A stretch of DNA of 64,000 bases from positions 140,753 through 204,752 of the forward strand of contig DATNBU010000037.1 in assembly GCA_035571835.1 (NCBI GenBank), read 5' to 3'. Of this stretch, positions 8,428 through 26,998 are shown one piece after another (positions within the stretch are counted from its first letter, which is position 1; every line of letters starts with the position of its first letter). The notes under the pieces are model-generated. The model saw only the letters and a list, made by a program, of their open reading frames with translations. It searched no databases and was not told the DNA's origin. The position numbers were made by a program, and so were the translations under genes. Source of the stretch: Candidatus Limnocylindrales bacterium. GTDB lineage: Bacteria > Desulfobacterota > Binatia > UBA1149 > CAITLU01.

Positions 8428-8428
8428 A

Positions 8429-8540: not shown

Positions 8541-8639
8541 TAAATAAAAACGGGACAGATCCGGTTTTGGTTTCCGGAGCTGTCCCGTTCTTTGTCGCGG
8601 GTCGGTGCGCGGTGAGTCCGGGGCTGTCCCGGGTTTCGA

Positions 8640-11426: not shown

Positions 11427-11435
11427 TTACCGGCG

Positions 11436-12992
11436 ATGCGCATCCGCTGGTCGGAATTCGAAAACATCTTCCGTGAATTCACGGAGCCTGCCGGCGGCGC
11501 GCTGTCGTTCTATCTCGAGGACGAGTCCGGCAACGTCGTGGCCGGGTCGGTATCGGATGACAGGCCGGCGGTCGCGCGACACCGGCTGACGATTGCCGAG
11601 CAGCACATCGCACGCCTCAACGCGTGCGGGAACGCCTCTCCGGAAACGGTGCGGCTTTGCTGGGCCGCGTGCGAGCGCGAGCTCGCGCATCAGCTGACGA
11701 TCGGCGACATGGCGGACGCGACCGCGCGCCTGTGGCGTCAGACCAACGCACTGCTTCGCATGAGCGAAAGCACCAACCTTGCGCTCGAGCCGGGCCCGAT
11801 GCTGAGCCGTGTGCTCGGCGTGCTTGCGCACGCGACCAATCTCGAGCGCGGCTGCGCGCTGGTGCGCGTTGCGGGCGCCACCGATTACACGCTGTTCGGG
11901 TTCGAGCACCCGCGCCAGGTTCCGGCGAGCGCGATCAAGACGCTCGAAAAGCTCGAAGACGATGTGACAATGCTTCCCGGCGAAGGCGATACGCGCGAAG
12001 TCCAGAAGGAGTGCGCGTCGCTTCTCGGCCGCCGCTCGCAGCTCATCGTCGTCCGCATCGCGACCGACAACGCGCGCTACGGATACCTGCTGGTTCCGTT
12101 CTCGGTGACGACGACGGTCAGCTCCGAGGACTTGAAGGTGCTCGGCGCCGCGACGCGCATCGTCGGAATCGCCGTCGAGAATTCGCATACACTGCTTCGC
12201 GAGCGCGAATCGATGCGTCTCGAAGTCGAAAACGAGATGCTCAGCAACCAGGCGCGCGAGATGGAAGAGATGCTTCACGTGGTCTCGCACGACCTGCGTT
12301 CGCCGATGACCGCGATCTACGGATTCATGCACATCGCGCTCGACGAGCTCGACGACCTGCGCACGTCGCTCGAGGATCTGCCCGATCACGAGGTTGCCAC
12401 TCAGGGCACGCGCATCGCCAAGCCGCTCGAAGACGGCATTCGCAGCGTCGAGCGCCTGAACGGAATGGTGCAAAGGCTCCTCGACTTCTCGCGCATCGCG
12501 CGACTCGAGTATCATTTCGAGCCGCTCGAGATGTCGCGGCTCGTCGGCGACGTGGTCGATTCGCTCGGCTTCCATATGCGCGAGAAGGGCATCAAGGTTT
12601 CGGTCGGACCCTTGCCGAACACCGACGGCGACCGTGTCCAGGTCGAAGTGGTGTTTCGAAACCTCGTCGACAACGCCGTCAAGTACATGGGCGACGGCAA
12701 GCCGCGCGAAATCGAGATCGGCAGCCGCGATGAGGCCGGCGAGACCGTCTATTTCGTGCGCGACACAGGCATGGGCATGACCGCAGAGCAGTGCGGAAAG
12801 GCGTTCCTGCCGTTCCGGCGTTTTCGTGCGGACGCGGCTCCCGGCGAAGGCATCGGCCTGTCGTTCGTGCGCAAGATCGTCGAGCGTCATGGCGGCCGCA
12901 TCTGGTGCGAATCGACCGAAGGCGTCGGGACGTCGTTTCAGTTTACGCTCAAGGCCGGAAGGGTCGGACGGGATATCGCTCTGAGCGCGTAG
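11436..12992 (+). CDS. Sensor histidine kinase (GAF-like N-terminus, HisKA, HATPase_c)
   Basis: H-box VVSHDLRSPMTAIYGF; N/G boxes FRNLVDNAVKY, DTGMGMT, GEGIGLSFV. Confidence 0.85.
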   Translation: MRIRWSEFENIFREFTEPAGGALSFYLEDESGNVVAGSVSDDRPAVARHRLTIAEQHIARLNACGNASPETVRLCWAACERELAHQLTIGDMADATARLWRQTNALLRMSESTNLALEPGPMLSRVLGVLAHATNLERGCALVRVAGATDYTLFGFEHPRQVPASAIKTLEKLEDDVTMLPGEGDTREVQKECASLLGRRSQLIVVRIATDNARYGYLLVPFSVTTTVSSEDLKVLGAATRIVGIAVENSHTLLRERESMRLEVENEMLSNQAREMEEMLHVVSHDLRSPMTAIYGFMHIALDELDDLRTSLEDLPDHEVATQGTRIAKPLEDGIRSVERLNGMVQRLLDFSRIARLEYHFEPLEMSRLVGDVVDSLGFHMREKGIKVSVGPLPNTDGDRVQVEVVFRNLVDNAVKYMGDGKPREIEIGSRDEAGETVYFVRDTGMGMTAEQCGKAFLPFRRFRADAAPGEGIGLSFVRKIVERHGGRIWCESTEGVGTSFQFTLKAGRVGRDIALSA

Positions 12993-13053
12993 CTTCGCGA
13001 TTTGCTTGTCGGCGCGGTTCGGGTCGAATGCGGCGGCCGCATCGCGTCGCGCG

Positions 13054-13162
13054 CTGGTTCAGGAGCGCGCGGTTTTCAGAGACGCGCTCATTTCAGAAGC
13101 GTGCCGTGTTTTCAGGAGCACGTCCGATTTTCCGGTGCCGGTTTTCAGGAGATAGAAAAGTG
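13054..13162 (+). repeat. Tandem array of about six ~18-19 bp repeats with core TTTCAG(G/A)AG, immediately upstream of the hemQ-like gene
   Basis: ggttcaggagcgcgcg / gttttcagagacgcgctca / tttcagaagcgtgccgtg / ttttcaggagcacgtccga / ttttccggtgccg / gttttcaggagatagaaaaGTG. The last copy supplies the SD for the GTG start. Confidence 0.7.
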
Positions 13163-13993
13163 CCCGAGTTCGTCGCCGTCGAAGCCCCTCAAACTATCGA
13201 AGGCTGGTACACGCTTCACGACGTCTACACGGTCGACTGGTCACTGTGGCATGCGCTCGATGATCTGGAGCGCGAGCACGTCGGCAGCGAGCTTTCGAGC
13301 TGGCTCGAGGGTCTCGCGGCCTATCCGGAACGCGGCGATTCGAAGCTCTACAGCGTCGTCACGCAGAAAGGCGACCTCATGTTCTGCCACTACCGGAGCA
13401 GCCCGGCTGCGCTCAACGAGATCGAGCTCCAGCTTCGCAAGCTACGCATCTATGAGTTTCTTGCTCCGGCGTACTCGTACCTGTCGGTGATCGAGGTGAG
13501 CCTGTACGAAGTGCAGGCGATGGCGATGCGCCGCCTTTCCGATCGCGGCATTGCGCCGGGGACTCCCGAGCACGACGAAGCCCTGGCCAAGGAAATGGAA
13601 GTGCAGAAGGAGCGCATGAACGAGCGCCTATTCCGCAGGATCCCGCCGCAGCGCTACATCTGCTTCTATCCGATGAACAAGCGTCGCGGCGAGCAGGTCA
13701 ACTGGTATGCGCTGCCGCTCAAGGATCGCCGCGCGATCATGCGCGGTCACGGATCGATCGGCCACAAGTACGCCGACGTCGTCACGCAGGTGATCGGCGG
13801 ATCGACCGGTCTCGACGACTGGGAATGGGGCGTGAGCCTGCACGCCGAGGACCCGCTGTCGTTCAAGAAGCTCATCTACGAAATGCGCTTCGACCCCGCG
13901 AGCTCATGGTTCGCCGAGTTCGGCCCGTTCTATGTCGGCGTTCACATCGCCCCGACCGCCGTCGCCGCCCTGATGGAAGGAAGGCTTGAGTAA
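13160..13993 (+). CDS. Chlorite dismutase / HemQ (coproheme decarboxylase)-family protein
   Basis: GTG start with AGGAG SD; 277 aa; the overall architecture and length fit the Cld/HemQ family (WYTLHDVYTVDW..., C-terminal GPFYVGVHI). Confidence 0.75.
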   Translation: MPEFVAVEAPQTIEGWYTLHDVYTVDWSLWHALDDLEREHVGSELSSWLEGLAAYPERGDSKLYSVVTQKGDLMFCHYRSSPAALNEIELQLRKLRIYEFLAPAYSYLSVIEVSLYEVQAMAMRRLSDRGIAPGTPEHDEALAKEMEVQKERMNERLFRRIPPQRYICFYPMNKRRGEQVNWYALPLKDRRAIMRGHGSIGHKYADVVTQVIGGSTGLDDWEWGVSLHAEDPLSFKKLIYEMRFDPASSWFAEFGPFYVGVHIAPTAVAALMEGRLE

Positions 13994-14106
13994 AAGGGGA
14001 CAGGTACAATTAAAAAAACCGTTTAAAATCGCGGCGGCGTTGCGGCGCATAAAATGCGTGCGCGATTTTCCACGTGATTTTTAAATGTACCTGGTCCCTT
14101 TTTTCA
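13993..14106. repeat. AT-rich nested inverted-repeat element (MITE-like) in the convergent intergenic region; likely a bidirectional terminator
   Basis: Outer arms AAAGGGGACAGGTACA ... TGTACCTGGTCCCTTT; inner arms AAAATCGCG ... CGCGATTTT; T-run follows. Shares the GGGACAGGTAC motif with 61373..61406. Confidence 0.6.
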
Positions 14107-14913
14107 GCGGCGCGCCGCTACGTCTTTCCAGTTTGTCATCAGTGCGCGTGCAGACGCGGTGTGCGTGCCGAGAACCTGCGTGCGGTTCTCGAGCTCGATC
14201 GCCGTGCGCAGCGTCGGGGCATCGATGTTGATTGCGAGAACCTGCTTGGTCGTCGAGACCGCATACTCGGAGTTTGCGCAGATCTCGTCGGCGAGCGCAC
14301 GGCTTGCCGCGAGCAGCCCTTCGGCGGGAACGATGCGGTTTACGAGACCGATACGCAGCGCTTCGTCCGCTTCGATGAGACGTCCCGTAAGGCTCATCTC
14401 GTAAGCGTGACCTGCGCCGACCAGGCGCGGCAGCAGATACGAGACGCCAACGTCGCATCCGGATATCCCCAGCTTTACGAAGGCGACGCTGAAGCGCGCC
14501 GACGGCGCTGCGTAGCGAACGTCGCACGACAGAGCGAGCGCGAGCCCGCCACCGGTCGCAGCGCCGTTGACAGCTGCGATGAACGGCTGCCGAGCCTCGC
14601 GCATGCGCGGCATCAACGACGCGATTCGCTGCTGCACCGCAAGGCCGCCTTCGACCGAATCGAGGCCTTCGGTGATCGGCCACTTGCCGTGTTCCTGCAG
14701 ATCGAGGCCGGCGCAGAAGCCGCGGCCTTCGCCGGTCAGGATGACGACGCGCGCCTCGCGGTTTTTTGCGAGGACGTCGAGGCACGAGTGCAGGTCGTCG
14801 ATGAGGCCGGGCGACATCGCGTTCAGGCGATGCGGTCGCGTGAGCGTCAGTGTGGCGACGCTGCCGTCAAGGTCGAGGCGAAGGTCTTCGGTGCGGACGA
14901 GATCGGTGGGCAT
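14104..14913 (-). CDS. Enoyl-CoA hydratase/isomerase family protein
   Basis: Crotonase signature FCAGLDLQE...AAVNGAATGGGLALALSCDVRYA; start chosen at MPTDLV, which has GGAGG 8 nt upstream. Confidence 0.8.
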   Translation of the reverse strand: MPTDLVRTEDLRLDLDGSVATLTLTRPHRLNAMSPGLIDDLHSCLDVLAKNREARVVILTGEGRGFCAGLDLQEHGKWPITEGLDSVEGGLAVQQRIASLMPRMREARQPFIAAVNGAATGGGLALALSCDVRYAAPSARFSVAFVKLGISGCDVGVSYLLPRLVGAGHAYEMSLTGRLIEADEALRIGLVNRIVPAEGLLAASRALADEICANSEYAVSTTKQVLAINIDAPTLRTAIELENRTQVLGTHTASARALMTNWKDVAARR

Positions 14914-15070
14914 GCGCGGGTCCTCCGGCATCGGCTCAAAGCCGAAGGCCGTCGGCGAGTAAAATCGGCGGCGAAATGCGTGCTGCGGCGCGCTTCCTGC
15001 GCGTCGCCTGCCGGCGAGTGGACATCGGGCGACGAAGTGGCTAGCAGAAGGGCCTTCCACTGCTCGTTCG

Positions 15071-15146
15071 GTCGCATAGCTCAGCTGGTTAGAGCGCTCG
15101 CCTCACATGCGAGAGGTCCCTGGTTCGAATCCAGGTGCGACCACCA
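15071..15146 (+). tRNA. tRNA-Val (anticodon CAC)
   Basis: GGTCGCATAGCTCAGCTGGTTAGAGCGCTCGCCTCACATGCGAGAGGTCCCTGGTTCGAATCCAGGTGCGACCACCA; acceptor GGTCGCA/TGCGACC; anticodon loop CUCACAU; CCA encoded. Confidence 0.9.
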
Positions 15147-15214
15147 TCTTTGATTCCCTGCACGTCCCGCGAAGTCCGAAACACGAATTGTCAAGGGCGA
15201 ATGGCAGATGCCCC

Positions 15215-15349
15215 GCGGCTCGGATGAAGATGCGGGTGAAGCACATTGTTCCGCTGTCAGAGCAGGCGGTCGCCATTCTCGGGGAACTCGCAGTCAGCGC
15301 GGCGTACAACTTCGCCGAGCATCTGCCGGAGCGGCGCAGAATGATGTAA
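15215..15349 (+). pseudogene. Remnant of a P4-type tyrosine integrase (internal ~45-aa fragment only)
   Basis: ARMKMRVKHIVPLSEQAVAILGEL resembles the conserved P4-integrase segment ERMKMRRPHIVPLSxQAL; no N-terminal or catalytic RHRY region is present. Confidence 0.5.
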
Positions 15350-15612
15350 GCGTGGGCGAGCTACCTGAATGGCCTGAAGGCTGGGGCGGTGGTAGTGCCG
15401 CTGTTTCGCAGCGCCTAGAACCGGAACCAAATATCGATCGCTACTTGCGACGAGGGGGCCGTTCCTCCGATGGCGCAGTCCGTGGTTCGGTATGGCCGAC
15501 CGAAGCGCCGCCAACGCAATTGGCGGAAGATGAGGTCGACGATCGTCGTTTCCACTCCGGCCATGCAGACACACGTTGGGCGGTCTTTTCTATTCCGGTC
15601 CAAAACGACTTG

Positions 15613-17151
15613 CTATGGTTCTGCTTCGACATCCGCCTCGTCCTCCTCCAACTTCTGTCGCAACTCATCTAACGCCGCAACCGCCAGCAGTTCTCGTACG
15701 GGGTAAGCGATGGGTAACATTGGGGTCCGCGGGTGGCTGGCCTCACCTGTCGGAAGCTCAACGCGATTCCCCTCCTCGTCCTTTCGGGACAAAACCACCC
15801 CGTCTGACCTCACCATGCTAAACAGGTCGCCATACCGACGAGGTGCAACGCCGAGGAAGGGTCCCAGCACCATGCGGGCCGCTTGAGCATCCACCGCTGA
15901 ATCCTCTCCCGCATGATGGATCGCATCTCCGTGGAGAGGTAGAGCCTCACTTTTCGGATATGGCTCGATATAGACGATTCGCTTCACTCCCGCCGCAACC
16001 GCGTGCCGAGCGCAGTTGTGACACGGGAAGGTGGTCGTGTAGAGGACCGCGTTTCGGACACTCACGCCAACACGCGCCGCCGACAAGAGTGCCTCCATCT
16101 CCGCATGAACGGTTCGTCCATACTCGGTGATGTCCCGTAGCTTTGATTCGGAAAGCACGCGTGTCGCTTTCTCGACATCATCCACCAAGCCCTGTTCCCT
16201 AAGGGCCTCGGCAGCCCTCGCCGCGATTACTCGGAGACGTGCGGTGTTCGAGTCGAACCCAATGGCGAGGTCTCGCATGTCGGGATTGTCCTCAGCGCTA
16301 TACAGCCCGCCGCCGGGACGTGGGACTTCATTGTGCCCAACGCCGATCAGGTCCCCGGTTTCAGCGATGAGAGCAGCTCCGATCTGTCGTGCGAGCGCGC
16401 CCGAACGAATCGATGCTCCGAACGCTGCGTGCATCCCAAATTCGTCGAGCGTGGGGGTGTGGAAAGGGTTGCCGAATACCAAGTCGAGAAAGCGATGGAG
16501 GGCCGCCTGTGTGGACTCGTAGCTGGAAACATCGATGAAGACATCTGAAAGATGGAATGTATCTCGGGTCTGTTGCCCGAACTTTTTGTCCTCCTCTTCG
16601 TCCTCATCACGTCTCAAAAGCTTCTCCGCCTGCTCTTCGGAGAGACCTTGCGAGACTTGGAGATGGCGCTTGCGCAAGTTGCGTGGGGCGAAAGCGCCGA
16701 TCAGATAGAACCCGGGTCCGTAGATTTGACGTAGGGTCCGGACTTCCTCCGGGCGTTTCAGCGAATCAAGAACGTGAACGTGCCGGGGCAGAGTCGGATC
16801 CGGGTCTTCGATGTCCTCCGTCGCCTGTGCGCGGCGCTCTGAGATGTTGAACACGGCTGACAGCACGAGCGCATTGCAGTAACCGGACCGTCGCCGGAGT
16901 TCGTTTCCGGCGGTCATATATGAGTTGACGCGATTGAAGTAGGGGTCGCCTTCGATCGGCACGCCGAGAATCTCGGCGAAATTCGGAAGGTCGTCGCTCA
17001 GTTTTACAGTGTTGACCTCGTACCGCCGAACGGCGAACAGGTCGCGTAGAACCGACGTGACGAAATCGCGGTTGCAGCCAATTGGTGCGACCAGTCCAAT
17101 GATGAGTTCGGAGTTGGCGGTCGCAAAGAGTGAAACCTCAGATGTCCCCAC
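15613..17151 (-). CDS. AvcD/DCD-like anti-phage deoxycytidylate (dCTP/dCMP) deaminase candidate: C-terminal CMP/dCMP-type zinc deaminase domain after a ~300-aa N-terminal domain
   Basis: HAEMEAL...PCHNCARHAVAAGVKRIVYIEPYP is the H[AC]E...PCxxC zinc-binding signature of dCMP/cytidine deaminases. The 512-aa architecture matches described defensive deaminases. Located in the tRNA island. Confidence 0.7.
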   Translation of the reverse strand: MGTSEVSLFATANSELIIGLVAPIGCNRDFVTSVLRDLFAVRRYEVNTVKLSDDLPNFAEILGVPIEGDPYFNRVNSYMTAGNELRRRSGYCNALVLSAVFNISERRAQATEDIEDPDPTLPRHVHVLDSLKRPEEVRTLRQIYGPGFYLIGAFAPRNLRKRHLQVSQGLSEEQAEKLLRRDEDEEEDKKFGQQTRDTFHLSDVFIDVSSYESTQAALHRFLDLVFGNPFHTPTLDEFGMHAAFGASIRSGALARQIGAALIAETGDLIGVGHNEVPRPGGGLYSAEDNPDMRDLAIGFDSNTARLRVIAARAAEALREQGLVDDVEKATRVLSESKLRDITEYGRTVHAEMEALLSAARVGVSVRNAVLYTTTFPCHNCARHAVAAGVKRIVYIEPYPKSEALPLHGDAIHHAGEDSAVDAQAARMVLGPFLGVAPRRYGDLFSMVRSDGVVLSRKDEEGNRVELPTGEASHPRTPMLPIAYPVRELLAVAALDELRQKLEEDEADVEAEP

Positions 17152-17615
17152 GCGCCTCAGACTATAGAGGTTTGACGGCTTCCTGGCAGCTGAGCTGTGC
17201 GTTTCTCACTGAAGTCGCCGTCCGGACCCTTGCAGCGACGATTTGGCTGGGCTGCTTCTCGTGAGGCGAACAGTAACTTGGCTCACTTCGGGAGGACTGC
17301 CCATGCCACGCTCTTCGACAGCGGAAGCGACACAGCAACAATTCCTTTCAGCAATGGGCGAAGAATGGGCAACGCGGGCAGTCACGACGGCGGAGAAGCC
17401 AGCGTCGCGGATGTGCGTGTCGCCTACGACCTGCTCGAACACATCTTGTCCGAAGTATACGAAGGCAAGGGAAAGTCGCTGAAGGTACTCGCGAAAAAGG
17501 TAAACAAGAAGAAGGGGCCGGTAACATAGATGCGCTTGCCTGCTCTCCATATGGCGATCTCGCTAGGCGTGCGTGATCTTAGTCGCTCAATGGAACCAAC
17601 CCACGGACGCCACCA

Positions 17616-18500
17616 ATGAAATACGACAGATTCAATCGGTTCGAAGGGACGAGCTGGGCATTTTGGCAGTTCAATGAGTACGAAACTCAGATCAACAGCG
17701 CGTACTGGTCTGGGGTCGCGGCAGTTTCTCGCGCCAGCTACGAGATTCGGCGTAGTGCACCGCCCGTCAATGCAAGGGTGGTAATGCATGCCACGGGAAC
17801 GGACGCGCAGCGAATCTCGGCTGAGGGTCCCGCTTTTGTTGCGAATCTCGGCGAATTTCTTAAGTGGAACAGAGCCAGCTTCATTTTGGCAGCAACCGGA
17901 GCCTTTGAAACGTACATCTGGCGAGTCGTGTTAACTGCGTTGATGTCGGATCCTGCCGCGTTGCATGGCAAGTCTCGAGCAATCGATGGAGCGACTTGGC
18001 TGAAGTTGGGACTTCGACCGGACTACAGTGACATCAAGAAGCGGGTTACGAAGGATACGTGGTTCCAGCGCTATGCGGCTGTTCGGAATATCTTTGGTGA
18101 AATTCCAGCGCTGAGTAGTCGTGTTCCAGAATTAGATCAGATCAGAATTTTTCGTAACAACGCTGGGCACGCATTTGGGAGGGATTTGACGGTAGAACCA
18201 AATCTCACGGCGCGAACGACGGAACGCATGCGAACTATTGACGACACAAAGTTTAAGGAGTGGCTAGGTGTAATCTCGAAATCCGCAAAGGCCATCGATT
18301 CAGTGCTTGTCAAGAACCATATCGGTGATTTCGAGCCTATGATTCACTTTCACAACTACTATGAATCTCTTGGTACTGTGAAGCCGGGGATTAGCAGCGC
18401 ATTTGCCTCACAGTACAAGTTGGCCTTGGCAAAAACCGAAGGTCACTCTAAGGGCAACGAATATGCCCTGACACTGATTCGCGCTTACCTGAACGCGTAG
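17616..18500 (+). CDS. Hypothetical protein with an HEPN-like Rx4H motif (Abi_2/AbiD/AbiF-like)
   Basis: 294 aa, low GC; ELDQIRIFRNNAGHAFGRDL fits the HEPN R-x4-H motif (Abi_2 consensus lRNxxAH). Confidence 0.45.
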   Translation: MKYDRFNRFEGTSWAFWQFNEYETQINSAYWSGVAAVSRASYEIRRSAPPVNARVVMHATGTDAQRISAEGPAFVANLGEFLKWNRASFILAATGAFETYIWRVVLTALMSDPAALHGKSRAIDGATWLKLGLRPDYSDIKKRVTKDTWFQRYAAVRNIFGEIPALSSRVPELDQIRIFRNNAGHAFGRDLTVEPNLTARTTERMRTIDDTKFKEWLGVISKSAKAIDSVLVKNHIGDFEPMIHFHNYYESLGTVKPGISSAFASQYKLALAKTEGHSKGNEYALTLIRAYLNA

Positions 18501-18520
18501 CGCGCGACGCTACAGTCGCA

Positions 18521-19303
18521 GTGCCAGCCGTTCTCCCCATGCCTAACTTCCTCAAGCGATTACTGCTGAGGCATGTTTTAAAGAAACCCTCTCCGGATGT
18601 CGTCCCACGAAGCGGTGAGGCGGCGCGACAAGTTGACTGTCGTGTCGCGTACATTCGCCGAACAGAGCCTGAGCCGGAGGTTCTTGTCCAATCCGCGGGA
18701 GCGTCGGAAGTTACGGGCCTTCGTCGAGAGGCGGGTCGATTTCAAGTACCCTTGTCTCTCAGCTACGAAGATTTTTCAGCTGGGGATGTCGAGATTATCC
18801 ACTGGTATGGATTGACGAGTTTTCGATACGATGGGCTGTGGCGTTACGTCCTCGAAGGATTGACCGGCTTCGATAGAGCAAGCTTTCTCTACGATCGCGC
18901 ACGGCAGTTGGGGTTCAATCGGAAGCCACTACTTCGGTACAGCCTAACTGAATTGCTAGATACCCTTGTGGAAGCCGCACAACTTCATCCAACCGAGGAA
19001 CACTCCTCCGTATCGTTGCTAGTTCGCCGTTACGGCGAACGATGCATAGAGCACCCAGACTGGGAAACCGTCCGCGGGAGCACACAATTGTTTCTCGATG
19101 CGCTTGTGAGTTCTGATTCTTTGGAGCGGACAGCCACTGGCTATCGAGTGAAGCCTAAAGCGGTTCTTGCCCTGGCGGAGTTTCAAGAAGCCGAGCGACG
19201 TCACCGTGAGAACTTCCGTACGGCTAGAGCGATGACTCGTCTCACGGTCGTGCTCGTTATCATCGGAATTGTTCAGGCATACGTGACTTGGATGAGTCCG
19301 TAG
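18521..19303 (+). CDS. Hypothetical membrane-anchored protein (single C-terminal TM helix)
   Basis: 260 aa beginning 20 nt after the previous gene; C-terminal RLTVVLVIIGIVQAYVTWMSP; no recognisable domain. Confidence 0.45.
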   Translation: MPAVLPMPNFLKRLLLRHVLKKPSPDVVPRSGEAARQVDCRVAYIRRTEPEPEVLVQSAGASEVTGLRREAGRFQVPLSLSYEDFSAGDVEIIHWYGLTSFRYDGLWRYVLEGLTGFDRASFLYDRARQLGFNRKPLLRYSLTELLDTLVEAAQLHPTEEHSSVSLLVRRYGERCIEHPDWETVRGSTQLFLDALVSSDSLERTATGYRVKPKAVLALAEFQEAERRHRENFRTARAMTRLTVVLVIIGIVQAYVTWMSP

Positions 19304-19375
19304 TCCTCGGTGGCCGCGAGTGCTCACAAGTTGAGATGGTGAGAAACTAGAACCTTCAGGGCGTGGGCAAGCGTT

Positions 19376-20764
19376 TCATCTTGGCGCATCGGCCAAGTAC
19401 TGATTCACGTCGGTGAACAGCGTCCGAATGGATTCCAGATGCTCCCGCCGAATGGCTTCGTTCTTCTCGTTAAGTAGCCCCTCCACTGCAGCCCGACCAG
19501 GTCTTTCAGTCTTCGTGCGGACATCGTTCGCAGGTTGGGCAAAGAATCTGTAGTCGGGAAACCGTCGCCGAAGCTCACCGACGAGTTCTGCTTTGTCGGC
19601 GTCGAGGATTCCTACAACCTTCGAATAGCCCAACTCCGCCAGGACAGCGGCGAGGTGTGCCATATTCCCCGCTCCTCCAACGCCCCAACCGAAGAAGTCA
19701 CCACCGAGTTGCAGATTGAGTTCCGTGAGCACGACGTCATAGAAGACCACATCCTCCTGTCCTTCGACGAGGACTACCCGATCGTCGACGAAGAAAATCT
19801 CTCTCGCGTTGAGTCCGAGCAAGTGAGGATTGTTTTTATCGCGAAGAAGTCCGTAGAGATGTCCGGCCGTTTCAACCGACAACTGGGAGACTCGCACTCC
19901 ATCCTCACGGAGGTGCGCACGCGCAATCGCCATGCCGCTTTCGAGTGCCCTGAGATCGATCAGGTAGGGCGAGTGCGTTGCGATGACGATCTGACGGCTC
20001 GCCGCGTACTCGAATATTATGTTTGCCAACCGCCGCTGAAGAGCCGGGTGGAGTGAGAGTTCCGGTTCATCGATTATGATGAGGTCGCCGTCTTTCGAAT
20101 CATAGAGCGCGTCTACGATGTAGAGGAGGCTCACCAACCCCTCACCTAACCCTTCGCTGCTATGTGTGCCGCGCGCGTCTTGAAACTTGAGAAAATAAGT
20201 CCCTTGGTCAGTCTGATCGATAGTCCAGTTAGGGAGGGGTGAAACGAGTTTGGAGAATAACTCGTCGAAACCTCCTCGGTCGCGATTAACGGCGAAGAGT
20301 CGGTGAGTCAGCTCATGGAGGTTGGTAGATCGAGAGGACGGAAGCCCCCCAGCGTGCTGCGCATAGTCAACTCTGCTCCACGTCGCTTTGCTGAAGTACG
20401 GGTCGAAGAACCGGCGAGACGGCAGAACGAGCAGTCTCCGAAGCGTTATGAGGTCGCCCGTGGTCTCTCGCTCAGTTTCGCTCTGCCCACGTCGGAGGCT
20501 TCGAAGCGTAGCTATACCACCATCGCACGAAGCGACGATTTCCACCCTATCTCCGGCAGGCAGGTTTCGACGGCCTTGCGAGAACGAAGGAGGTTCCGCC
20601 ATTCGGATCGCGCGGAAGGCCTCGATGATCGTCGTCTTGCCCGAGTTGTTTGCGCCAAGGACCACAGTCAGTCCGCTGCCGGGTGTTCCTGTGGGCTTGG
20701 CAAGGTTGAGCTGCTGGGCTGTCTGGAACCCCCGCAGCCCGTGAATGCGAATGTAGTCGAGCAT
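19376..20764 (-). CDS. OLD-family ATP-dependent endonuclease (AAA ATPase + TOPRIM), class-1 stand-alone
   Basis: Walker A GANNSGKTT; Walker B LIIIDEPELSLHP; C-terminal TOPRIM-like VVLVEGQEDVVFY...GILDADK. Confidence 0.8.
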   Translation of the reverse strand: MLDYIRIHGLRGFQTAQQLNLAKPTGTPGSGLTVVLGANNSGKTTIIEAFRAIRMAEPPSFSQGRRNLPAGDRVEIVASCDGGIATLRSLRRGQSETERETTGDLITLRRLLVLPSRRFFDPYFSKATWSRVDYAQHAGGLPSSRSTNLHELTHRLFAVNRDRGGFDELFSKLVSPLPNWTIDQTDQGTYFLKFQDARGTHSSEGLGEGLVSLLYIVDALYDSKDGDLIIIDEPELSLHPALQRRLANIIFEYAASRQIVIATHSPYLIDLRALESGMAIARAHLREDGVRVSQLSVETAGHLYGLLRDKNNPHLLGLNAREIFFVDDRVVLVEGQEDVVFYDVVLTELNLQLGGDFFGWGVGGAGNMAHLAAVLAELGYSKVVGILDADKAELVGELRRRFPDYRFFAQPANDVRTKTERPGRAAVEGLLNEKNEAIRREHLESIRTLFTDVNQYLADAPR

Positions 20765-20928
20765 CCTCCTACTTTGAGCGGCGGTCCCGCACCCGGCGAA
20801 CTGCGTTGTGCGGATTGCGAGGAGGTAGCCGCAATCGCAGCGTTGGGAGGTGGGGGCAACTTTGGGGGCACTCGGCGAGGCAGAACTCCGACTCTTGCCG
20901 CGAGGTCAGGTACTTACCGCATCAATGC

Positions 20929-20950
20929 GATTCCAGGTGCGCACCATCTT
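20929..20950 (+). repeat. attR-like imperfect direct repeat of the tRNA-Val 3' end
   Basis: gattccaggtgcgcaccatctt versus tRNA aatccaggtgcgaccaccatctt. Confidence 0.6.
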
Positions 20951-21068
20951 CTAACGGTCTATTCCGGTCACATAGGTTCATTTCATACCGGACACACTAC
21001 CGGCTCGTTGTCGCCAACCGTTCGACCAGATCTTCGATCCTGGCCCGAAGCGCCGAACGCGATGGGAA

Positions 21069-21515
21069 CTAGTGATCTCGCATTGCGGGGAATCCCTGCC
21101 AGACTTCGCTGTTGCGCACCGCAGCCTGGACGTCGGTTGGAAGCACCGTATCGTCGGTACTCTGGACGACGACGACGCGCTCAGCGTCCTTCACATCCTC
21201 CGGGGAGACGACGTGCGGTCGGTAGCCATCGAGGCGGAATCCGTCGACCGCCAGAGCGAACATCATGCGGTACGGTACGGCGGAATAGCTAGCGATAGCC
21301 GCCCGTGCGATGGCGCGCTCAGGAAGGCCGCGCGCCGATGCGAGCCGGTTGAAATAGGCGGCGGACCACACACTCATGGACACCCCGTTCCGGCACACGA
21401 ATACGACTTGCGCCGAGTCGCGTGCCACTTCGATTGGCTGGGCTTTCGTCGCAAAAGCAGCGGAAGCGGCGAGCAGCAACACGACGCCCACGACGAGAAC
21501 AGATTTGGACTTCAT
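21069..21515 (-). CDS. Secreted hypothetical protein
   Basis: Signal peptide MKSKSVLVVGVVLLLAASAAFA; 148 aa. Confidence 0.5.
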   Translation of the reverse strand: MKSKSVLVVGVVLLLAASAAFATKAQPIEVARDSAQVVFVCRNGVSMSVWSAAYFNRLASARGLPERAIARAAIASYSAVPYRMMFALAVDGFRLDGYRPHVVSPEDVKDAERVVVVQSTDDTVLPTDVQAAVRNSEVWQGFPAMRDH

Positions 21516-21770
21516 GGATCTGAAAACGATCGAAGCGGAGAAATCGTTACAAGGCTCGGTACTGGCGCAACTCGGCCGAATGACCGCCCACGCTTGGGAC
21601 TGCGATATAGAACCACTGGAAGCGGCTCGCAGAACGGCAGAGTTAGAAGACGAGCGGTGCCACACACGTGTCGATCTCTAGCGTCGCGAGCGGGACGAGC
21701 AGTGCTGCGCCCGGCGTACTCACGCATTGACCGCGCGAGCACGCAGGGGCCGCCTCGTAGAGCGAGCTAT

Positions 21771-22949
21771 CTACTCGCAATTCTCCGGGTAGAGCTCGCA
21801 GTGCTGAGGATTGCATCGGGACTGGCAATCCGGACCGGTGCAGTCGCGATCGTACAGCAATCCGATGTAGCACCACAGAGTCAGTTCCGTCTGGAGGTAC
21901 CTGAAGCGGAAGTACAGAACCGTGGGCGCTGGCGTGATCTCTTCGCCATCGAGCGGTAGCGGTGTGACCGTGAGGCGCACCCGCCAGTACGTGTCGGTGC
22001 CGGCATCGGTATCTTCCAGACTCGGGAGGCCGCTCGGCGGAATTTTCAGTACGGGCGAATTGGCGTGGGCGGTGAGCCATGGCATCTGTACCGGGCCTCC
22101 CTGCAGCGTCGATGGGAAAAGGATTTCCCACTGGTACGACAGTGCGGCGTTAACCTGCGAACAGACTCGTTCGTCGATAGTCCGGTCGGCATAGAGGAAC
22201 TGACCCTCGATATCGTCGCCCGATCCGTCAAGATCAGCGACAGTCTTGCATCCGCCGGCGCTCGGGGTTTGCATCCCACAATCCGGCCAAAAGCCCTCTT
22301 CCCGCACGAGCTCGTAAAAATCCGTACCCCGATCGATCTCGACGACGATGTCAGGACTGCCGTCGCCGCACAAAAGCGGCAGCGTCGTCGTCGTGGTGGT
22401 CGACGTGGTCGTGCTCGTTGTCGAAGTCGTCGAGGTCGTCGGCGGAGGCGGGAAGCACACGCCGGAGTCGTTGGCATCGACGGCGTAGTCGCCGTTGGTG
22501 TCCGCTCCGTCGATGCAGGTCGGCCGGTTGAAGCACACGTCGCCGGAGCGCTCCTGGCAGTCGGTTGCAGTTCTGATCTTGCAGCGGACCTTGCCGGCGG
22601 CGCTCTGCTCCACACATGGAGCCAGCTCGTCGCTGCCGATTCCGCAAACGGACGTCGCGTACATTTTCTTGAGCAAGCCTTTGCAGGTTTTGTTCAGGCC
22701 TTCCCTTTCGATGGCCAGATTGATCTGCCCGGCGACGCATCGTTTGAACTCGGCGCGCCCCTTCCCGTCGCTGCCATCGTACTGTGCGCAGGGACAGGCC
22801 AGATCGATCCAGCCCCTTGTCGATTCCATCAATCCGCCGTCCAGAAACGTCGGATCGCAAGGCTCGGCTGCGCGCGCCGGAGCGGCAGCGGCAGCGATGA
22901 GGACGAATGCCACAAGGAACGACCGGAAACGGTTGCTGTTCGCTTTCAT
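21771..22949 (-). CDS. Secreted cysteine-rich protein with a Thr/Ser-rich linker
   Basis: Signal peptide FLVAFVLIAAAAAPARA; 30+ Cys; PPPPTTSTTSTTSTTTSTTTTTT linker. Confidence 0.65.
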   Translation of the reverse strand: MKANSNRFRSFLVAFVLIAAAAAPARAAEPCDPTFLDGGLMESTRGWIDLACPCAQYDGSDGKGRAEFKRCVAGQINLAIEREGLNKTCKGLLKKMYATSVCGIGSDELAPCVEQSAAGKVRCKIRTATDCQERSGDVCFNRPTCIDGADTNGDYAVDANDSGVCFPPPPTTSTTSTTSTTTSTTTTTTLPLLCGDGSPDIVVEIDRGTDFYELVREEGFWPDCGMQTPSAGGCKTVADLDGSGDDIEGQFLYADRTIDERVCSQVNAALSYQWEILFPSTLQGGPVQMPWLTAHANSPVLKIPPSGLPSLEDTDAGTDTYWRVRLTVTPLPLDGEEITPAPTVLYFRFRYLQTELTLWCYIGLLYDRDCTGPDCQSRCNPQHCELYPENCE

Positions 22950-23317: not shown

Positions 23318-26263
23318 GTGGGCGGAATGCCTGAGGCCGATCGCGAAGCACCGCGCATCGACGACACCGCGGAATGCATCTGGCGCGACGGCGAAAAGAT
23401 CGGCGTCCCTCCGAAGGCCTTCCTCGTGTTGCGGCGACTGATGGAACGGCCGGGGCAGCTCGTCACGAAGAGCGACCTGCTGGATACGGTATGGCCGGGC
23501 ACCTTCATCACCGAGACTGTGCTCAACAATGCCGTCGGCCAGCTTCGTCAGGCTCTCGGCGACGACACACGGCGGCCGAGGTTCATCGAGACCGTTCACC
23601 GACGCGGCTTCCGATGGATCGGGCCGTCACAAACTGCCTCCGCGCTGCCACCGGCTGCGATCGGTGACGAGATCGGTGTCGGCTTCGCGGCCGCCGACGA
23701 TTTCGTTGGTCGCGCGGAGACCCTTGCCGAGCTTGCGCGTCATCTTGCGCGCGCGGCCGCGCGTCAGCGCCAGCTCGTTTTCGTGACCGGCGAGCCGGGC
23801 ATCGGAAAGTCCGCTCTGGTCGAAAACTTTCTCCGTGGACTCGCCGCGTCCGATCCTGCGAGCGTCAACGTCGGGCGTGGAGAGTGCATCGAAGCTTACG
23901 GCGTCGGCGACCTGTACCGACCGGTGCGCGATGCGGTCGAGCAGATGCTGCAGCGAAGCGGCCCCGACACGCTGCGGGCGTTTCGCCGGCACGCTCCGAG
24001 CTGGCTGCTTTCGATGCCCGAGCTTTCGAGCGCTGCCGAGCTCGAGGAGCTTCGTCGCGCCGTCATCGGCGCGACCAGCGACAGTGTGCAGCGCGAGCTC
24101 GAACGTGCGCTAGAAGCAGCGAGCACCAGGGCTGTCGTCGTGCTCGTCATCGAAGACCTGCACTGGAGCGATCCTGCGACGGTATCGCTTCTATGGAGCC
24201 TGGCGGCGCGGCGCGAACCCGCGAGGCTGCTGATCGTCGGCACCTACCGGTCCGTCGACGCCATTGCGCAGCAGCACCCGATCATCCGGATGAAGCATGA
24301 GCTGAGCGCGAAGCGGCTATGCGTCGAAATCGCGCTCGAGGGGCTTTCGATCGACGGCGTCACATCCTTTCTCGACCTGCAGTTTTCCGGGCACCAGTTT
24401 CCGGCCGGGCTTGCGATCCCGCTTCACGAACAGAGCGCGGGCAATCCGCTGTTTCTGCTGAACGCTCTCGACGACTTCCGTCAGCGCGGATGGCTACGCG
24501 AAGAGGACGACGTCTGGCGATGCACCGTCGATCTCGACTCGATCGTGGCCTCGGTTCCCGAGAGCACGCGCGAGCTGGTCGGTTTTCGTATCGAGCAGCT
24601 GCCGGCAGCGACACGCATGCTTCTCGAGGCAGCCAGCATCGTCGGAGCGGGATTCGCCGCGCAGGCCGTCGCTGCAGCCGAGGGCGGCACGTGCGCGGAT
24701 GTGGAAACGCAGCTCGAGCCGCTGGCGCGGGCTGGGCAGTTCATCGAGAGCAGCGGCGAGGTCGTCTGGCCAAACGGCATTCGTGGTCGCGAGTATCGAT
24801 TTCGACACGCGCTCTACCGGCAGGTTCTCAGTCGCCACGTCACGCCGGCACGGCGCGCGCTTCTGCACCAGCGCATCGCGAGCGCTCTGGAAAGCGCGTA
24901 TGGCGAGCGCTGCAATGAAATTGCGGGACAGCTCAGTGTGCATTTCGAGCAGGCCGGCGACGCTGTGCGCGCGGCCGAGTACATCGACGTCCTCGCGAAG
25001 CAGGCCTACTCGCGTTCGGCCACCCACGAAGCCGAGGCGATGTACCGGCACGCCGTCGCGTTGCTGAAAAGCGGCCCGATGACTCCGGCGCGGCAGGAAC
25101 GGCTGCTCAAGTCGATGACTGCGCTCGGCATCGCGATGAGCACCGTGCACGGGCTCGGTAGCGCCGAAGCCGCCGAAGTATGGCAGGAAGCGCGCGAGCT
25201 CGGGCGGGCGCTGAACAGGACACCGGAGTACGTGGCGTCGCTCAGCGCGACGATCATGGCCAGGACCTATATGGGACAGGTCCGGGAAGCGCTGGCCATT
25301 GCTCAGGAAAGCCTCCTGCTCGCCGGAAGCGATCAATCGTCCAGTGCCGTCACCGTCGCGCACATGTCGATGGGGCAGAGCCTGCTGTATCTCGGCGAGA
25401 TCGACGCGGCGCTCGTCCATTCCGAGCGCGCTGTCGCATCGATCGATCTCGAAGCGCCCGAAGCGCTCCGCCTTGACGCTTCCGGCTACGATCCGTCGGC
25501 GCCGGCGACGCTTTCGCGAGGATGGTGTCTGGTCCTTGCCGGGCGCCTGCGCGAAGGAAGAGCGTTGACCGAGTCGGCGATCCGCATGGCTCGCGCCAAG
25601 CAGCAACCGTTCTATCTGATCTTCAACGTGAGCATGGCGGGACTGGTCGCGCTGATCCTCCGGGATCCTGCTCGGGCTCACGAGCTGGCGGCCGAGGCGC
25701 TGGCTATTGGCGAAGAAAACTCGCTGCCGTACGGCCGGGAGATGAACCAGATCGTCTGCGGCTGGGCCGACGTTCGCCGCACTCTCGATCCGAAACCGCT
25801 CGGCCGGATGCGCGAGATCCTCGACTCCATTCTCGGGACAGGGACGCTGCAGGTTTCGCGCGGATGCAGCATGTTCGCCGACGCGTGTCTGGCGGCGGGC
25901 CGCATCGACGATGCCTGCGAAGCGAACACTGCGGCGTTCGAAACGCGTGGGGAAGGACGCTTCTACGACGCCGAGTTGTTGCGCCAGCGCGCGGCGATCG
26001 TGCTGGCTCGTTCGAAGCAGGGCGGTTCGAGCTCCGAGCAGGCCGGAGAGCTGCTCGAGCAGGCGATCAACGTGGCGCACTCGCAGGGCGCGAAGCTGTT
26101 CGAGCTGCGCGCTCTCGTCGAGCTTTGCAGACTGCGGTCGAGCGACGGCTGGCGCGATGAGGCGCGCCAGCGACTCGAGGCTGTGATCGGCAGCGTCGAT
26201 GGTGACGACGATGAAATCGACCTGCGGGAGGCGCGTGAGGTGCTCGAAGAAATGAGGCGTTGA
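23318..26263 (+). CDS. Transcriptional regulator: OmpR/CadC-type winged-helix DNA-binding N-terminus fused to a STAND/AAA ATPase and a TPR-like C-terminal region
   Basis: trans_reg_C-like VPPKAFLVLRRLMERPGQLVTKSDLLDTVWPG...RRGFRWIG; Walker A VFVTGEPGIGKSAL; 981 aa. Confidence 0.8.
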   Translation: MGGMPEADREAPRIDDTAECIWRDGEKIGVPPKAFLVLRRLMERPGQLVTKSDLLDTVWPGTFITETVLNNAVGQLRQALGDDTRRPRFIETVHRRGFRWIGPSQTASALPPAAIGDEIGVGFAAADDFVGRAETLAELARHLARAAARQRQLVFVTGEPGIGKSALVENFLRGLAASDPASVNVGRGECIEAYGVGDLYRPVRDAVEQMLQRSGPDTLRAFRRHAPSWLLSMPELSSAAELEELRRAVIGATSDSVQRELERALEAASTRAVVVLVIEDLHWSDPATVSLLWSLAARREPARLLIVGTYRSVDAIAQQHPIIRMKHELSAKRLCVEIALEGLSIDGVTSFLDLQFSGHQFPAGLAIPLHEQSAGNPLFLLNALDDFRQRGWLREEDDVWRCTVDLDSIVASVPESTRELVGFRIEQLPAATRMLLEAASIVGAGFAAQAVAAAEGGTCADVETQLEPLARAGQFIESSGEVVWPNGIRGREYRFRHALYRQVLSRHVTPARRALLHQRIASALESAYGERCNEIAGQLSVHFEQAGDAVRAAEYIDVLAKQAYSRSATHEAEAMYRHAVALLKSGPMTPARQERLLKSMTALGIAMSTVHGLGSAEAAEVWQEARELGRALNRTPEYVASLSATIMARTYMGQVREALAIAQESLLLAGSDQSSSAVTVAHMSMGQSLLYLGEIDAALVHSERAVASIDLEAPEALRLDASGYDPSAPATLSRGWCLVLAGRLREGRALTESAIRMARAKQQPFYLIFNVSMAGLVALILRDPARAHELAAEALAIGEENSLPYGREMNQIVCGWADVRRTLDPKPLGRMREILDSILGTGTLQVSRGCSMFADACLAAGRIDDACEANTAAFETRGEGRFYDAELLRQRAAIVLARSKQGGSSSEQAGELLEQAINVAHSQGAKLFELRALVELCRLRSSDGWRDEARQRLEAVIGSVDGDDDEIDLREAREVLEEMRR

Positions 26264-26539
26264 AATTCCGTCTGAGCCGCGCGCAAGAGCCTCGTCGCCG
26301 TCTCGCAGGGGCGTGTCCGACGCTGGTAATCTGAGTTAGGCAGCGTGGTGCGGCAGTTCCCGCATTCGCGGACGCCAACGCAACTTCACCGCCTGCCTCC
26401 AATTCGTTGATGATTGACGGTGCGGCTAGTATCGGACGCGAACCCCGTGTCGTGGCGATGCTGTCCACAGATCTCTACCATCCTCCGTTCGTCCGCTCCG
26501 CCACCCGCGACCGGCGTTCACGGACTCGTAAAGTAGGGT

Positions 26540-26944: not shown

Positions 26945-26998
26945 CGTCGGACCACAATGGTAGTCCGGTGAACGCGCGGAGCGGTGGAACTCCCACCG

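What the first reader, a model, noticed from the sequence alone, without database searches (positions are those of the whole stretch)
15071..20950. tRNA-Val-anchored defence island with decayed integrase and an attR-like repeat
Immediately 3' of tRNA-Val lies a ~5.8 kb segment of visibly lower GC. It ends at GATTCCAGGTGCGCACCATCTT (20929..20950), an imperfect copy of the tRNA 3' end (AATCCAGGTGCGACCACCATCTT). Just after the tRNA, only a ~45-aa internal fragment of a P4-type integrase survives (ARMKMRVKHIVPLSEQAVAILGEL). This points to an old, now-fixed integration. The cargo is all defence-like: a dCMP-deaminase-domain protein, an OLD-family nuclease and two unknown genes.
Basis: partly seen in the sequence, partly recalled or inferred. 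Interest (0 to 1): 0.7.

Follow-up and report, generated by a model that had tools for sequence, protein, structure and literature searches.

The report
Decayed tRNA-Val defence island
A 5.8-kb piece of foreign DNA carrying anti-phage genes once inserted into a tRNA-Val gene of an uncultured soil bacterium (Candidatus Binatia) and has since lost its integrase; this is an ordinary example of a well-known kind of island, and it also carries two uncharacterised genes.

Summary
tRNA-Val(CAC) lies at 15070-15146. Its last 25 nt (15126-15150) recur at 20928-20950 with one mismatch and a 2-nt deletion. No Markov shuffle of the downstream 20 kb reaches that score (0 of 300; fitted p about 8.5e-4). The enclosed DNA has GC 0.569, against 0.637 +/- 0.013 for other 5.8-kb windows, and GC3 of 0.53-0.66 against 0.74-0.82 in the flanking genes.

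A relative (L004) has an intact 414-aa P4-type integrase right after the same tRNA. The window keeps only two pieces of it (aa 257-291 and 373-414), with a premature stop. Related integrases in viral contigs bound 11-kb elements with the same kind of short, slightly defective copy of the tRNA 3' end.

The cargo is:
- a bona fide anti-phage dCTP deaminase;
- a stand-alone ATPase-TOPRIM nuclease of the OLD family;
- a 294-aa HEPN protein from an unannotated family seen in defence or mobile islands elsewhere;
- a 254-aa winged-helix protein with a hydrophobic tail, from a large unannotated family found on mobile elements.

No empty site could be found, because the right-flank gene order is not conserved in the available relatives.

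Verdict: a real, immobilised tRNA-integrated defence island, and a new member of a known kind.

The parts
15070..15146 (+). tRNA-Val (anticodon CAC), intact; the integration target
   Evidence: ARAGORN; Rfam tRNA, 72.5 bits. The sequence is identical in relatives L003 and L004.
15126..15150 (+). attL-side copy of the attachment core: the tRNA 3' end from the T-loop through CCA, plus TCTT
   Evidence: Local alignment to 20928-20950; sequence read.
15185..15415 (+). Remnant of a P4-type tyrosine integrase. Two in-frame pieces are joined at 15289/15290. They match aa 257-291 (74% identity) and aa 373-414 (86% identity) of the intact 414-aa integrase of L004. A TAA stop lies at 15347-15349.
   Evidence: tblastn of the L004 integrase against the window; DNA block alignment. 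The L004 integrase has Arm-DNA-bind_3 + Phage_int_M + Phage_integrase domains.
15613..17151 (-). Anti-phage dCTP deaminase (512 aa): N-terminal kinase-like domain plus C-terminal zinc deaminase domain
   Evidence: PADLOC dCTPase, E 3.5e-149. NCBIfam NF041025 equivalog, 430 bits against a cut-off of 400. Pfam dCMP_cyt_deam_1. HAE at 349, PCHNC at 376, PIGC at 23-26.
17365..17529 (+). Small 54-aa ORF called upstream of the 294-aa gene; no known family; it may not be a real gene
   Evidence: Gene calls on the source contig. No Pfam or PHROG hit. No similarity to the DUF4145 gene that precedes homologues of the 294-aa gene elsewhere.
17616..18500 (+). 294-aa HEPN-domain protein of an unannotated family; candidate RNase-type defence or abortive-infection effector
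18539..19303 (+). 254-aa protein: N-terminal beta domain, winged-helix domain, and a long C-terminal helix ending in a hydrophobic segment (residues 235-253). It belongs to a large unannotated family found on mobile elements.
19376..20764 (-). 462-aa OLD-family ATPase-TOPRIM nuclease, stand-alone (Class 1-like)
   Evidence: Pfam AAA_21, AAA_15 and AAA_23, plus OLD-like_TOPRIM at 19.8 bits, below its 23.2-bit cut-off. PADLOC Old 6e-20, and ATPase-only hits to AriA and PtuA. PDB: GajA 1e-9 and T. scotoductus OLD (6p74) 3e-8. Walker A GANNSGKT at 37, Walker B LIIIDEPE at 228, TOPRIM EGQED at 334 and DAD at 388.
20928..20950 (+). attR-like partial copy of the tRNA-Val 3' end (one mismatch, 2-nt deletion); right boundary of the island
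   Evidence: Elements with related integrases show the same geometry in L039 and L040.

Best explanation
A mobile element with a P4-type tyrosine integrase recombined its attachment site with the 3' end of tRNA-Val(CAC). This rebuilt the tRNA at the left junction and left a partial copy of about 25 nt of the tRNA 3' end at the right junction (20928-20950). The integrase gene next to the tRNA was later destroyed by two deletions and a stop codon. The distal repeat also differs by one substitution and a 2-nt deletion. The 5.8-kb segment can therefore no longer excise and is now a resident defence island.

It carries four independently transcribed units:
- a dCTP deaminase, which should deplete dCTP on infection;
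- a stand-alone OLD-family ATPase-TOPRIM nuclease, which should cut DNA;
- a HEPN protein, probably an RNase-type effector;
- a winged-helix protein with a hydrophobic tail, of unknown role.

Shown here: the tRNA, the repeat and its significance, the composition break, the integrase deletions relative to an intact orthologue, and family assignment of the deaminase and of the OLD domains and motifs. Inferred: the integration event itself, immobility, and all biochemical activities and anti-phage roles in this organism.
For: - **tRNA and repeat.** tRNA. The repeat scores 34 against a next-best 22 in the window, 0 of 300 shuffles reach it, and p is about 8.5e-4. It lies in an intergenic gap.
- **Composition.** GC is 0.569 against 0.637 +/- 0.013. 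GC3 returns to host level (0.74-0.76) in the two genes just right of the repeat.
- **Integrase.** L004 has an intact 414-aa integrase starting 163 nt after an identical tRNA-Val. The window retains the tRNA trailer and two pieces of that gene at 82-85% DNA identity. It lacks 893 nt and 249 nt of it.
- **Comparators.** Integrases 51-57% identical to L004's sit about 165 nt after tRNA-Ala in L039 and L040. Their 11-kb elements end in a 23-25-nt copy of the tRNA 3' end, running from the T-arm to just past CCA, with a 1-nt deletion.
- **Variable site.** Relatives carry different content at this tRNA.
- **Cargo.** (deaminase and OLD; HEPN protein).
Against: - **No unoccupied site was found.** An exact junction pattern gave 0 hits. 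A metagenome scan with the 392-aa right-flank protein gave 0. Exact copies of both flanking proteins occur only in the same two samples, both with the island. Homologues of the 392-aa protein sit in unrelated neighbourhoods without a tRNA.
- **The right flank is not conserved in relatives**, so the true right boundary could lie further out.
- **Cargo GC3 is heterogeneous** (0.53-0.66), which would fit piecemeal acquisition.
- **The imperfection of the distal repeat** could be an original difference between attP and attB rather than decay.
Confidence: 0.85

Rival explanations
1. The variable region is larger or composite. On this view, 20928-20950 marks the end of only one of several elements stacked at tRNA-Val. 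The genes to its right (148 aa, 392 aa, perhaps more) would be older, compositionally ameliorated island material.
For: - The right flank is not syntenic in any relative.
- The 392-aa protein has only four detectable homologues, and the two whose contexts were examined lie in unrelated neighbourhoods.
- Tandem stacking does occur with this integrase group: L038 has a perfect 47-nt tRNA copy immediately before its integrase, 8.2 kb after the tRNA.
Against: - GC3 of the 148-aa and 392-aa genes (0.74, 0.76) is close to that of core genes (0.78-0.82) and far from the cargo.
- No second copy of the tRNA 3' end exists anywhere in the 64-kb window; the next best score is 22.
- The available relatives are only 79-88% identical in the neighbouring hydratase protein, so loss of gene order is expected anyway.
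Confidence: 0.2
2. The integrase remnant and the present cargo do not belong to one element. On this view, the integrase has been resident at this tRNA since before the window and L004 lineages split. The cargo downstream of it has been exchanged since then, either by recombination between related elements or by successive insertions and deletions.
For: - The remnant and trailer are about as diverged from L004 (82-85% DNA identity) as the adjacent core hydratase region (79%).
- L004 carries different sequence directly after its integrase.
- Cargo GC3 is heterogeneous, and the closest homologues of the 294-aa gene sit in other island types.
Against: - Only about 430 nt of L004 cargo are available for comparison.
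- Equal divergence is also expected if related elements were acquired independently.
- The repeat still bounds exactly the low-GC block.
Confidence: 0.3
3. There was no site-specific integration. On this view, the repeat is a coincidence, and the low-GC genes arrived by homologous recombination or other means in an ordinary variable region next to a tRNA.
For: No empty site or excision product was observed. The repeat is short and gapped.
Against: - 0 of 300 shuffles reach the score, and p is about 8.5e-4.
- The repeat covers exactly the portion of the tRNA that related integrases duplicate.
- It lies at the composition break in an intergenic gap.
- Integrase remains lie where an integrase is expected.
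Confidence: 0.04

Closest known systems
[quoted passage not shown]
   Same: The island sits next to a tRNA gene, is associated with a phage-type integrase, and packs several unrelated defence genes together. Content at the same site differs between relatives. That paper reports 18 of 41 hotspots within tRNA loci, and 'integrase-only' islands without other mobility genes.
   Different: Here the integrase is reduced to two short pieces, so the island is no longer mobile. The host is an uncultured Candidatus Binatia bacterium. Unoccupied sites could not be documented.
P4-type integrase elements and small phage-satellite-like elements integrated at tRNA 3' ends (here L039 and L040 from IMG/VR)
   Same: Same integrase architecture (Arm-DNA-bind_3, Phage_int_M, Phage_integrase). 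The integrase sits about 165 nt downstream of the tRNA on the same strand. A distal direct repeat of 23-25 nt covers the T-arm to the 3' end and contains a small deletion.
   Different: L039 and L040 target tRNA-Ala(CGC) and encode capsid, prohead protease and portal. The window's island has no structural or replication genes, so the type of its ancestral element is unknown.
Anti-phage dCTP deaminase (Tal et al., bioRxiv 10.1101/2021.04.26.441389)
   Same: Kinase-like N-terminal domain plus zinc-dependent deaminase C-terminal domain in one polypeptide. It passes the NCBIfam equivalog cut-off, and the zinc-binding motifs are intact.
   Different: It is 512 aa rather than the 576 aa of the studied protein, comes from a distant phylum, and its activity is untested.
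Class 1 OLD family nucleases (P2 Old; Thermus scotoductus OLD, PDB 6p74; PMC7049728, PMC10568477, PMC12392090)
   Same: N-terminal ABC-type ATPase and C-terminal TOPRIM domain in one protein. There is no UvrD-like helicase, reverse transcriptase or separate TOPRIM partner next to it. The catalytic motifs are present.
   Different: It is shorter (462 aa, against 528 aa for the 6p74 chain). The Pfam OLD-like TOPRIM score is below the curated cut-off (19.8 against 23.2 bits). It is embedded among other defence genes, whereas the review describes Class 1 genes as typically not next to other candidate defence genes.
HEPN-domain toxins and abortive-infection proteins (HepT toxins, AbiA HEPN domain, RnlA/LsoA)
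   Same: The 294-aa protein has an invariant Rx4H motif. Its helical-bundle fold matches HEPN domains best. Homologues lie in defence or mobile islands.
   Different: No match to any Pfam HEPN family at E<=10. It is about twice the size of a minimal HEPN domain. No conserved antitoxin or partner gene is present.

Membership tests
tRNA-integrated genomic island made by a P4-type tyrosine integrase | Lies directly 3' of an intact tRNA gene | tested here: met
   tRNA-Val(CAC) lies at 15070-15146. The low-GC block starts within about 500 nt of it.
tRNA-integrated genomic island made by a P4-type tyrosine integrase | Direct repeat of the tRNA 3' end at the distal boundary | tested here: met
   15126-15150 against 20928-20950: 22 matched positions, one mismatch and a 2-nt gap. 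0 of 300 shuffles reach the score.
tRNA-integrated genomic island made by a P4-type tyrosine integrase | Integrase gene adjacent to the tRNA | tested here: inconclusive
   Only a remnant is present: 77 of 414 codons, interrupted by a stop codon. The intact orthologue in L004 occupies the same position. A functional integrase is absent.
tRNA-integrated genomic island made by a P4-type tyrosine integrase | Composition differs from the host genome | tested here: met
   GC is 0.569, which is 5 sd below other windows. GC3 is 0.53-0.66 against 0.74-0.82.
tRNA-integrated genomic island made by a P4-type tyrosine integrase | Unoccupied site in related genomes | tested here: inconclusive
   Relatives carry different content at the same tRNA. 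No relative that shares the right flank was found.
Anti-phage dCTP deaminase | N-terminal kinase-like domain and C-terminal cytosine deaminase domain, >350 aa (definition) | tested here: met
   The NCBIfam NF041025 equivalog covers residues 15-447 at 430 bits (cut-off 400). PADLOC E 3.5e-149. Length 512 aa.
Anti-phage dCTP deaminase | Zinc-binding deaminase active site and kinase nucleotide-binding motif intact | tested here: met
   HAE at 349, PCHNC at 376, and a Gly-Cys pair in PIGC at 23-26. The paper mutated C370/C401 and G29/C30. Correspondence of the N-terminal Gly-Cys is by position only.
Anti-phage dCTP deaminase | Depletes dCTP during phage infection | not testable with these tools
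   Needs expression, phage challenge and nucleotide measurement.
OLD family nuclease, Class 1 | N-terminal ABC ATPase plus C-terminal TOPRIM domain in one protein | tested here: met
   Pfam AAA_21/AAA_15/AAA_23 over residues 1-270 and OLD-like_TOPRIM over 328-390 (19.8 bits, below the 23.2 cut-off). The alignment to GajA and to 6p74 spans both parts. Walker A, Walker B, EGQED and DAD motifs are present.
OLD family nuclease, Class 1 | Single gene without helicase, retron or DUF4435 partner (class definitions) | tested here: met
   The neighbours are the convergent 254-aa gene and, across the repeat, the 148-aa gene. No UvrD, RT or other TOPRIM protein is in the island, and there is no retron ncRNA.
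Gabija (Class 2 OLD, GajA + GajB) | UvrD-like helicase gene GajB adjacent to the OLD gene | tested here: not met
   No helicase domain is found in any island ORF.
PARIS (AriA + AriB) | Separate TOPRIM/DUF4435 effector AriB next to an ATPase-only AriA | tested here: not met
   The AriA hits cover only the ATPase region. The TOPRIM domain is fused in the same protein, and no AriB-like gene is present.
HEPN superfamily (294-aa protein) | Conserved Rx4-6H motif | tested here: met
   R180-N-x-x-G-H185 is invariant in 20 aligned homologues down to 23% identity.
HEPN superfamily (294-aa protein) | HEPN helical-bundle fold | tested here: met
RiboL-PSP-HEPN (the label UniRef gives some homologues) | Match to the Pfam family model | tested here: not met
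   The window protein has no Pfam hit at E<=10, and the 20 family members have none at E<=0.1 apart from one weak HepT-like_2 hit. The label was seen only as a source name.

The most novel reading that the evidence does not exclude
The 294-aa HEPN protein, the 254-aa winged-helix protein with a hydrophobic tail, or both, are previously undescribed anti-phage or anti-plasmid genes. Both families are absent from Pfam, NCBIfam and PADLOC. Both recur in defence islands, integrase-bearing islands or conjugative plasmids. In this island they sit in tandem, 38 nt apart, and could act as a sensor/effector pair. Elsewhere the two families do not co-occur, so independent single-gene functions are more likely than an obligate pair.
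Probability: 0.25. Interest if true: 0.5.

Novelty: new member of a known kind. Interest (0 to 1): 0.3.

Why it matters
This is a clean, fully dissected example of how a mobile defence island becomes a permanent part of a chromosome. The integrase was lost through two deletions, and the distal attachment repeat is now imperfect. The host belongs to a poorly studied, uncultured lineage (Candidatus Binatia). It also shows that the nucleotide-depletion and OLD-nuclease defences known from model bacteria reach this lineage on the same kind of vehicle. The practical value lies in the two unannotated families it brings to attention: a HEPN family of about 24 known members, and a winged-helix family with a hydrophobic tail that has more than 600 cluster representatives. 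Their genomic company makes both reasonable candidates for experimental defence screens.

Tried and rejected
**Empty-site searches, all negative**
- An exact 24-nt predicted junction (tRNA 3' end fused to the sequence right of the repeat) gave 0 hits in metagenome contigs.
- A metagenome scan with the 392-aa right-flank protein gave 0 relatives.
- Exact-sequence look-ups of the 148-aa protein and the hydratase returned only the source contig and one Logan sample, both with the island.
- Contexts of the two nearest homologues of the 392-aa protein lack a tRNA and lack the window's gene order.
- Proteins encoded downstream of tRNA-Val in L003 and L005 have no counterparts near the island in the window.

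**Hypotheses rejected**
- *The 54-aa ORF upstream of the 294-aa gene is a remnant of the DUF4145 gene that precedes homologues elsewhere.* There is no similarity.
- *The 294-aa and 254-aa genes form an obligate pair.* A profile of the 254-aa family finds nothing in 12 loci that hold homologues of the 294-aa gene.
- *The 254-aa protein is an orphan.* The word-indexed search suggested this, but the exhaustive HMMER search overturned it.
- *The OLD-like gene belongs to Gabija, PARIS or a retron.* The partner genes and the ncRNA are absent.

**Other dead ends**
- A viral-contig scan with the 254-aa family alignment failed for lack of a conserved stretch.
- A phage-genome tblastn with the 254-aa protein found nothing.
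- The assembly break inside the tRNA in SRR6185369 was considered as a sign of strain heterogeneity. It was set aside because the same contig runs uninterrupted through the distal repeat, and tRNA genes commonly break metagenome assemblies.

Full report
**Source and setting**

The window is part of a 203-kb metagenome contig (ENA ERZ27256655, k141_2050732). A 6.8-kb Logan contig from SRR6185369 is identical over window 15089-21924. The closest genomes by the neighbouring enoyl-CoA hydratase (79-88% protein identity) are mostly labelled Candidatus Binatia.

**Check of the observation**

*tRNA and repeat.*
- ARAGORN and Rfam both find tRNA-Val(CAC) at 15070-15146 on the + strand.
- Its 3' end plus four bases (15126-15150, CGAATCCAGGTGCGACCACCATCTT) recurs at 20928-20950 as CGATTCCAGGTGCGCACCATCTT. 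The copy differs by one mismatch and a 2-nt deletion.
- Using the 3' half of the tRNA plus 14 nt as the query, this match scores 34. The next best in the whole window, on both strands, scores 22.
- None of 300 Markov shuffles of the 20 kb downstream reach 34 (mean 22.2, sd 2.1). A Gumbel fit gives about 8.5e-4. The tRNA-Gln control scores 21.
- The distal copy lies in the 304-nt gap between two genes.

*Composition.*
- The enclosed DNA has GC 0.569. The 187 other 5.8-kb windows have 0.637 +/- 0.013, with a minimum of 0.611.
- GC3 is 0.53-0.66 for the four enclosed genes. It is 0.74-0.82 for the genes on both sides, including the two immediately right of the repeat.

**The integrase**

Relative L004 (2.9-kb contig, hydratase 85% identical) has an identical tRNA-Val. 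An intact 414-aa integrase starts 163 nt after it, with Arm-DNA-bind_3, Phage_int_M and Phage_integrase domains. This is the P4-type architecture.

The window aligns to L004 as follows:
- through the tRNA and 43 nt of trailer;
- it then lacks 893 nt, covering the integrase start to about aa 256;
- it keeps 100 nt;
- it then lacks 249 nt;
- it keeps a further 110 nt, running almost to the end of the integrase gene.

At protein level the window retains aa 257-291 (74% identity) and aa 373-414 (86% identity). A TAA stop replaces a Gln codon at 15347-15349.

L003 also has integrase debris beside this tRNA. L005 has none; there the tRNA is followed by glyoxalase-like, APH-kinase, DUF6285 and histidine-kinase genes. 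The content at this tRNA therefore varies between relatives.

**Comparators for the repeat**

Integrases 51-57% identical to L004's occur in three IMG/VR contigs beside tRNA-Ala(CGC).
- In L039 and L040 the integrase starts about 165 nt after the tRNA. About 11 kb downstream there is a 23-25-nt copy of the tRNA 3' end, from the T-arm to just past CCA, carrying a 1-nt deletion. These elements encode capsid, prohead protease and portal.
- L038 has a perfect 47-nt copy directly before its integrase, 8.2 kb after the tRNA. This indicates tandem elements.

The window's repeat therefore has the position, length and slight imperfection seen at the ends of real elements that use this integrase group.

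**Cargo**

1. *15613-17151 (-), 512 aa: anti-phage dCTP deaminase.*
   - PADLOC E 3.5e-149. NCBIfam equivalog NF041025 scores 430 bits against a cut-off of 400. Pfam dCMP_cyt_deam_1.
   - It has HAE and PCHNC zinc motifs and an N-terminal Gly-Cys motif.
   - This matches the two-domain definition and the mutated positions in Tal et al..

2. *19376-20764 (-), 462 aa: OLD-family nuclease.*
   - It combines an ABC-type ATPase with a TOPRIM domain. Walker A, Walker B, EGQED and DAD motifs are present.
   - It aligns best to GajA and to the T. scotoductus Class 1 OLD.
   - No helicase, reverse transcriptase, separate TOPRIM protein or retron RNA is nearby. By the published context-based scheme it is Class 1-like. 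The Pfam TOPRIM score is below its cut-off.

3. *17616-18500 (+), 294 aa: HEPN protein.*
   - There is no hit in Pfam, NCBIfam, PADLOC or PHROGs.
   - It has 24 homologues and an invariant RxxRNxxGHxFGR block, which contains the HEPN Rx4H motif.
   - Homologues lie beside a Lamassu system in P. aeruginosa, in a P4-integrase island in P. hamedanensis, and beside DUF4145, MqsRA and a ubiquitin-like module in soil metagenome contigs. No neighbour is conserved.

4. *18539-19303 (+), 254 aa: winged-helix protein with a hydrophobic tail.*
   - It looked like an orphan in the indexed search. The exhaustive search found 642 cluster representatives, all 'hypothetical' where named.
   - On plasmids its neighbours vary: Mrr-type nuclease, DUF4268, partition genes, integrases and IS elements.
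   - The family is absent from loci that hold homologues of the 294-aa gene.

**What could not be shown**

No unoccupied site was found, because the right flank is not conserved in the available relatives. The right boundary therefore rests on three things:
- the repeat;
- the return of GC3 to host values;
- the absence of any second tRNA copy in the window.

Whether the integrase remnant and the present cargo arrived together is open. The remnant is about as diverged from L004 as the neighbouring core gene. That fits an old resident integrase with cargo turnover. It also fits independent acquisition of related elements.

**Verdict**

The phenomenon is well known: integrase-associated defence islands at tRNA hotspots, including 'integrase-only' islands, are documented at scale in E. 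coli. It is a new member of a known kind. The only parts with discovery potential are the two unannotated gene families.

Noticed in passing
L038 166-241, 8441-8487 and 8664-9860: An IMG/VR contig has tRNA-Ala(CGC), then 8.2 kb of DNA, then a perfect 47-nt copy of the tRNA 3' part immediately before a P4-type integrase. This looks like two elements stacked in tandem at one tRNA.
   Followed up: partly
L039 1642-13014; L040 50-11171: These 11-kb units are bounded by tRNA-Ala and a 23-25-nt partial copy with a 1-nt deletion. They encode an integrase, HK97-type capsid, prohead protease, portal and a tape-measure-like protein. They are very small for a phage and may be capsid-encoding satellites.
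   Followed up: partly
window 18539-19303; P0030-P0178; plasmid loci L030-L037: The family of the 254-aa protein is large (642 representatives at E<=1e-3) but has no Pfam, NCBIfam or PADLOC model. It occurs on conjugative plasmids of Klebsiella, Salmonella, Burkholderia and Shewanella, often near partition genes or nucleases.
   Followed up: partly
L016-L018 (P. aeruginosa) 8001-8888 and 11335-15643: The homologue of the 294-aa HEPN gene lies a few kb from a Lamassu-type cluster (LmuB_C, MC3, CTD7 domains). It has unannotated 248-aa and 174-aa genes on either side.
   Followed up: no
L010-L014: In soil metagenome contigs, the 70%-identical homologue of the 294-aa gene is always preceded by a DUF4145 gene. 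It is near an MqsR/MqsA pair and a Multi_ubiq/ThiF/BubE module, so this is another defence-island-like neighbourhood.
   Followed up: no
P0001 versus L003-L006: Taxonomic labels disagree. NCBI names the MAG holding the identical 294-aa protein 'Candidatus Limnocylindrales'. The nearest genomes by the adjacent hydratase are mostly 'Candidatus Binatia', with one labelled 'uncultured Myxococcales'.
   Followed up: no
L024 end (about window 15097) and L002 start (window 15089): The Logan assembly of SRR6185369 breaks inside tRNA-Val but runs uninterrupted through the distal repeat at 20928-20950. The break is probably caused by tRNA sequence shared between species rather than by island polymorphism.
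   Followed up: partly
L003 (reverse complement) about 1777-4339; window 56303-57379: Downstream of tRNA-Val, L003 has an N-terminal integrase fragment, what looks by eye like a C-terminal piece of a different recombinase, and a gene whose product is 51-57% identical to one encoded 35 kb away in the window.
   Followed up: no
window 26250-27000 and 27750-29250: Further patches of lower GC (0.56-0.58) lie to the right of the large regulator gene. One of them is near a superoxide-dismutase-like gene. They were not examined for mobile-element signatures.
   Followed up: no
window 21771-22949 (-): The 392-aa right-flank protein has a long Thr/Ser run, no Pfam domain, and only four detectable homologues in 5.8 billion sequences. 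It is a lineage-restricted protein of unknown role.
   Followed up: partly
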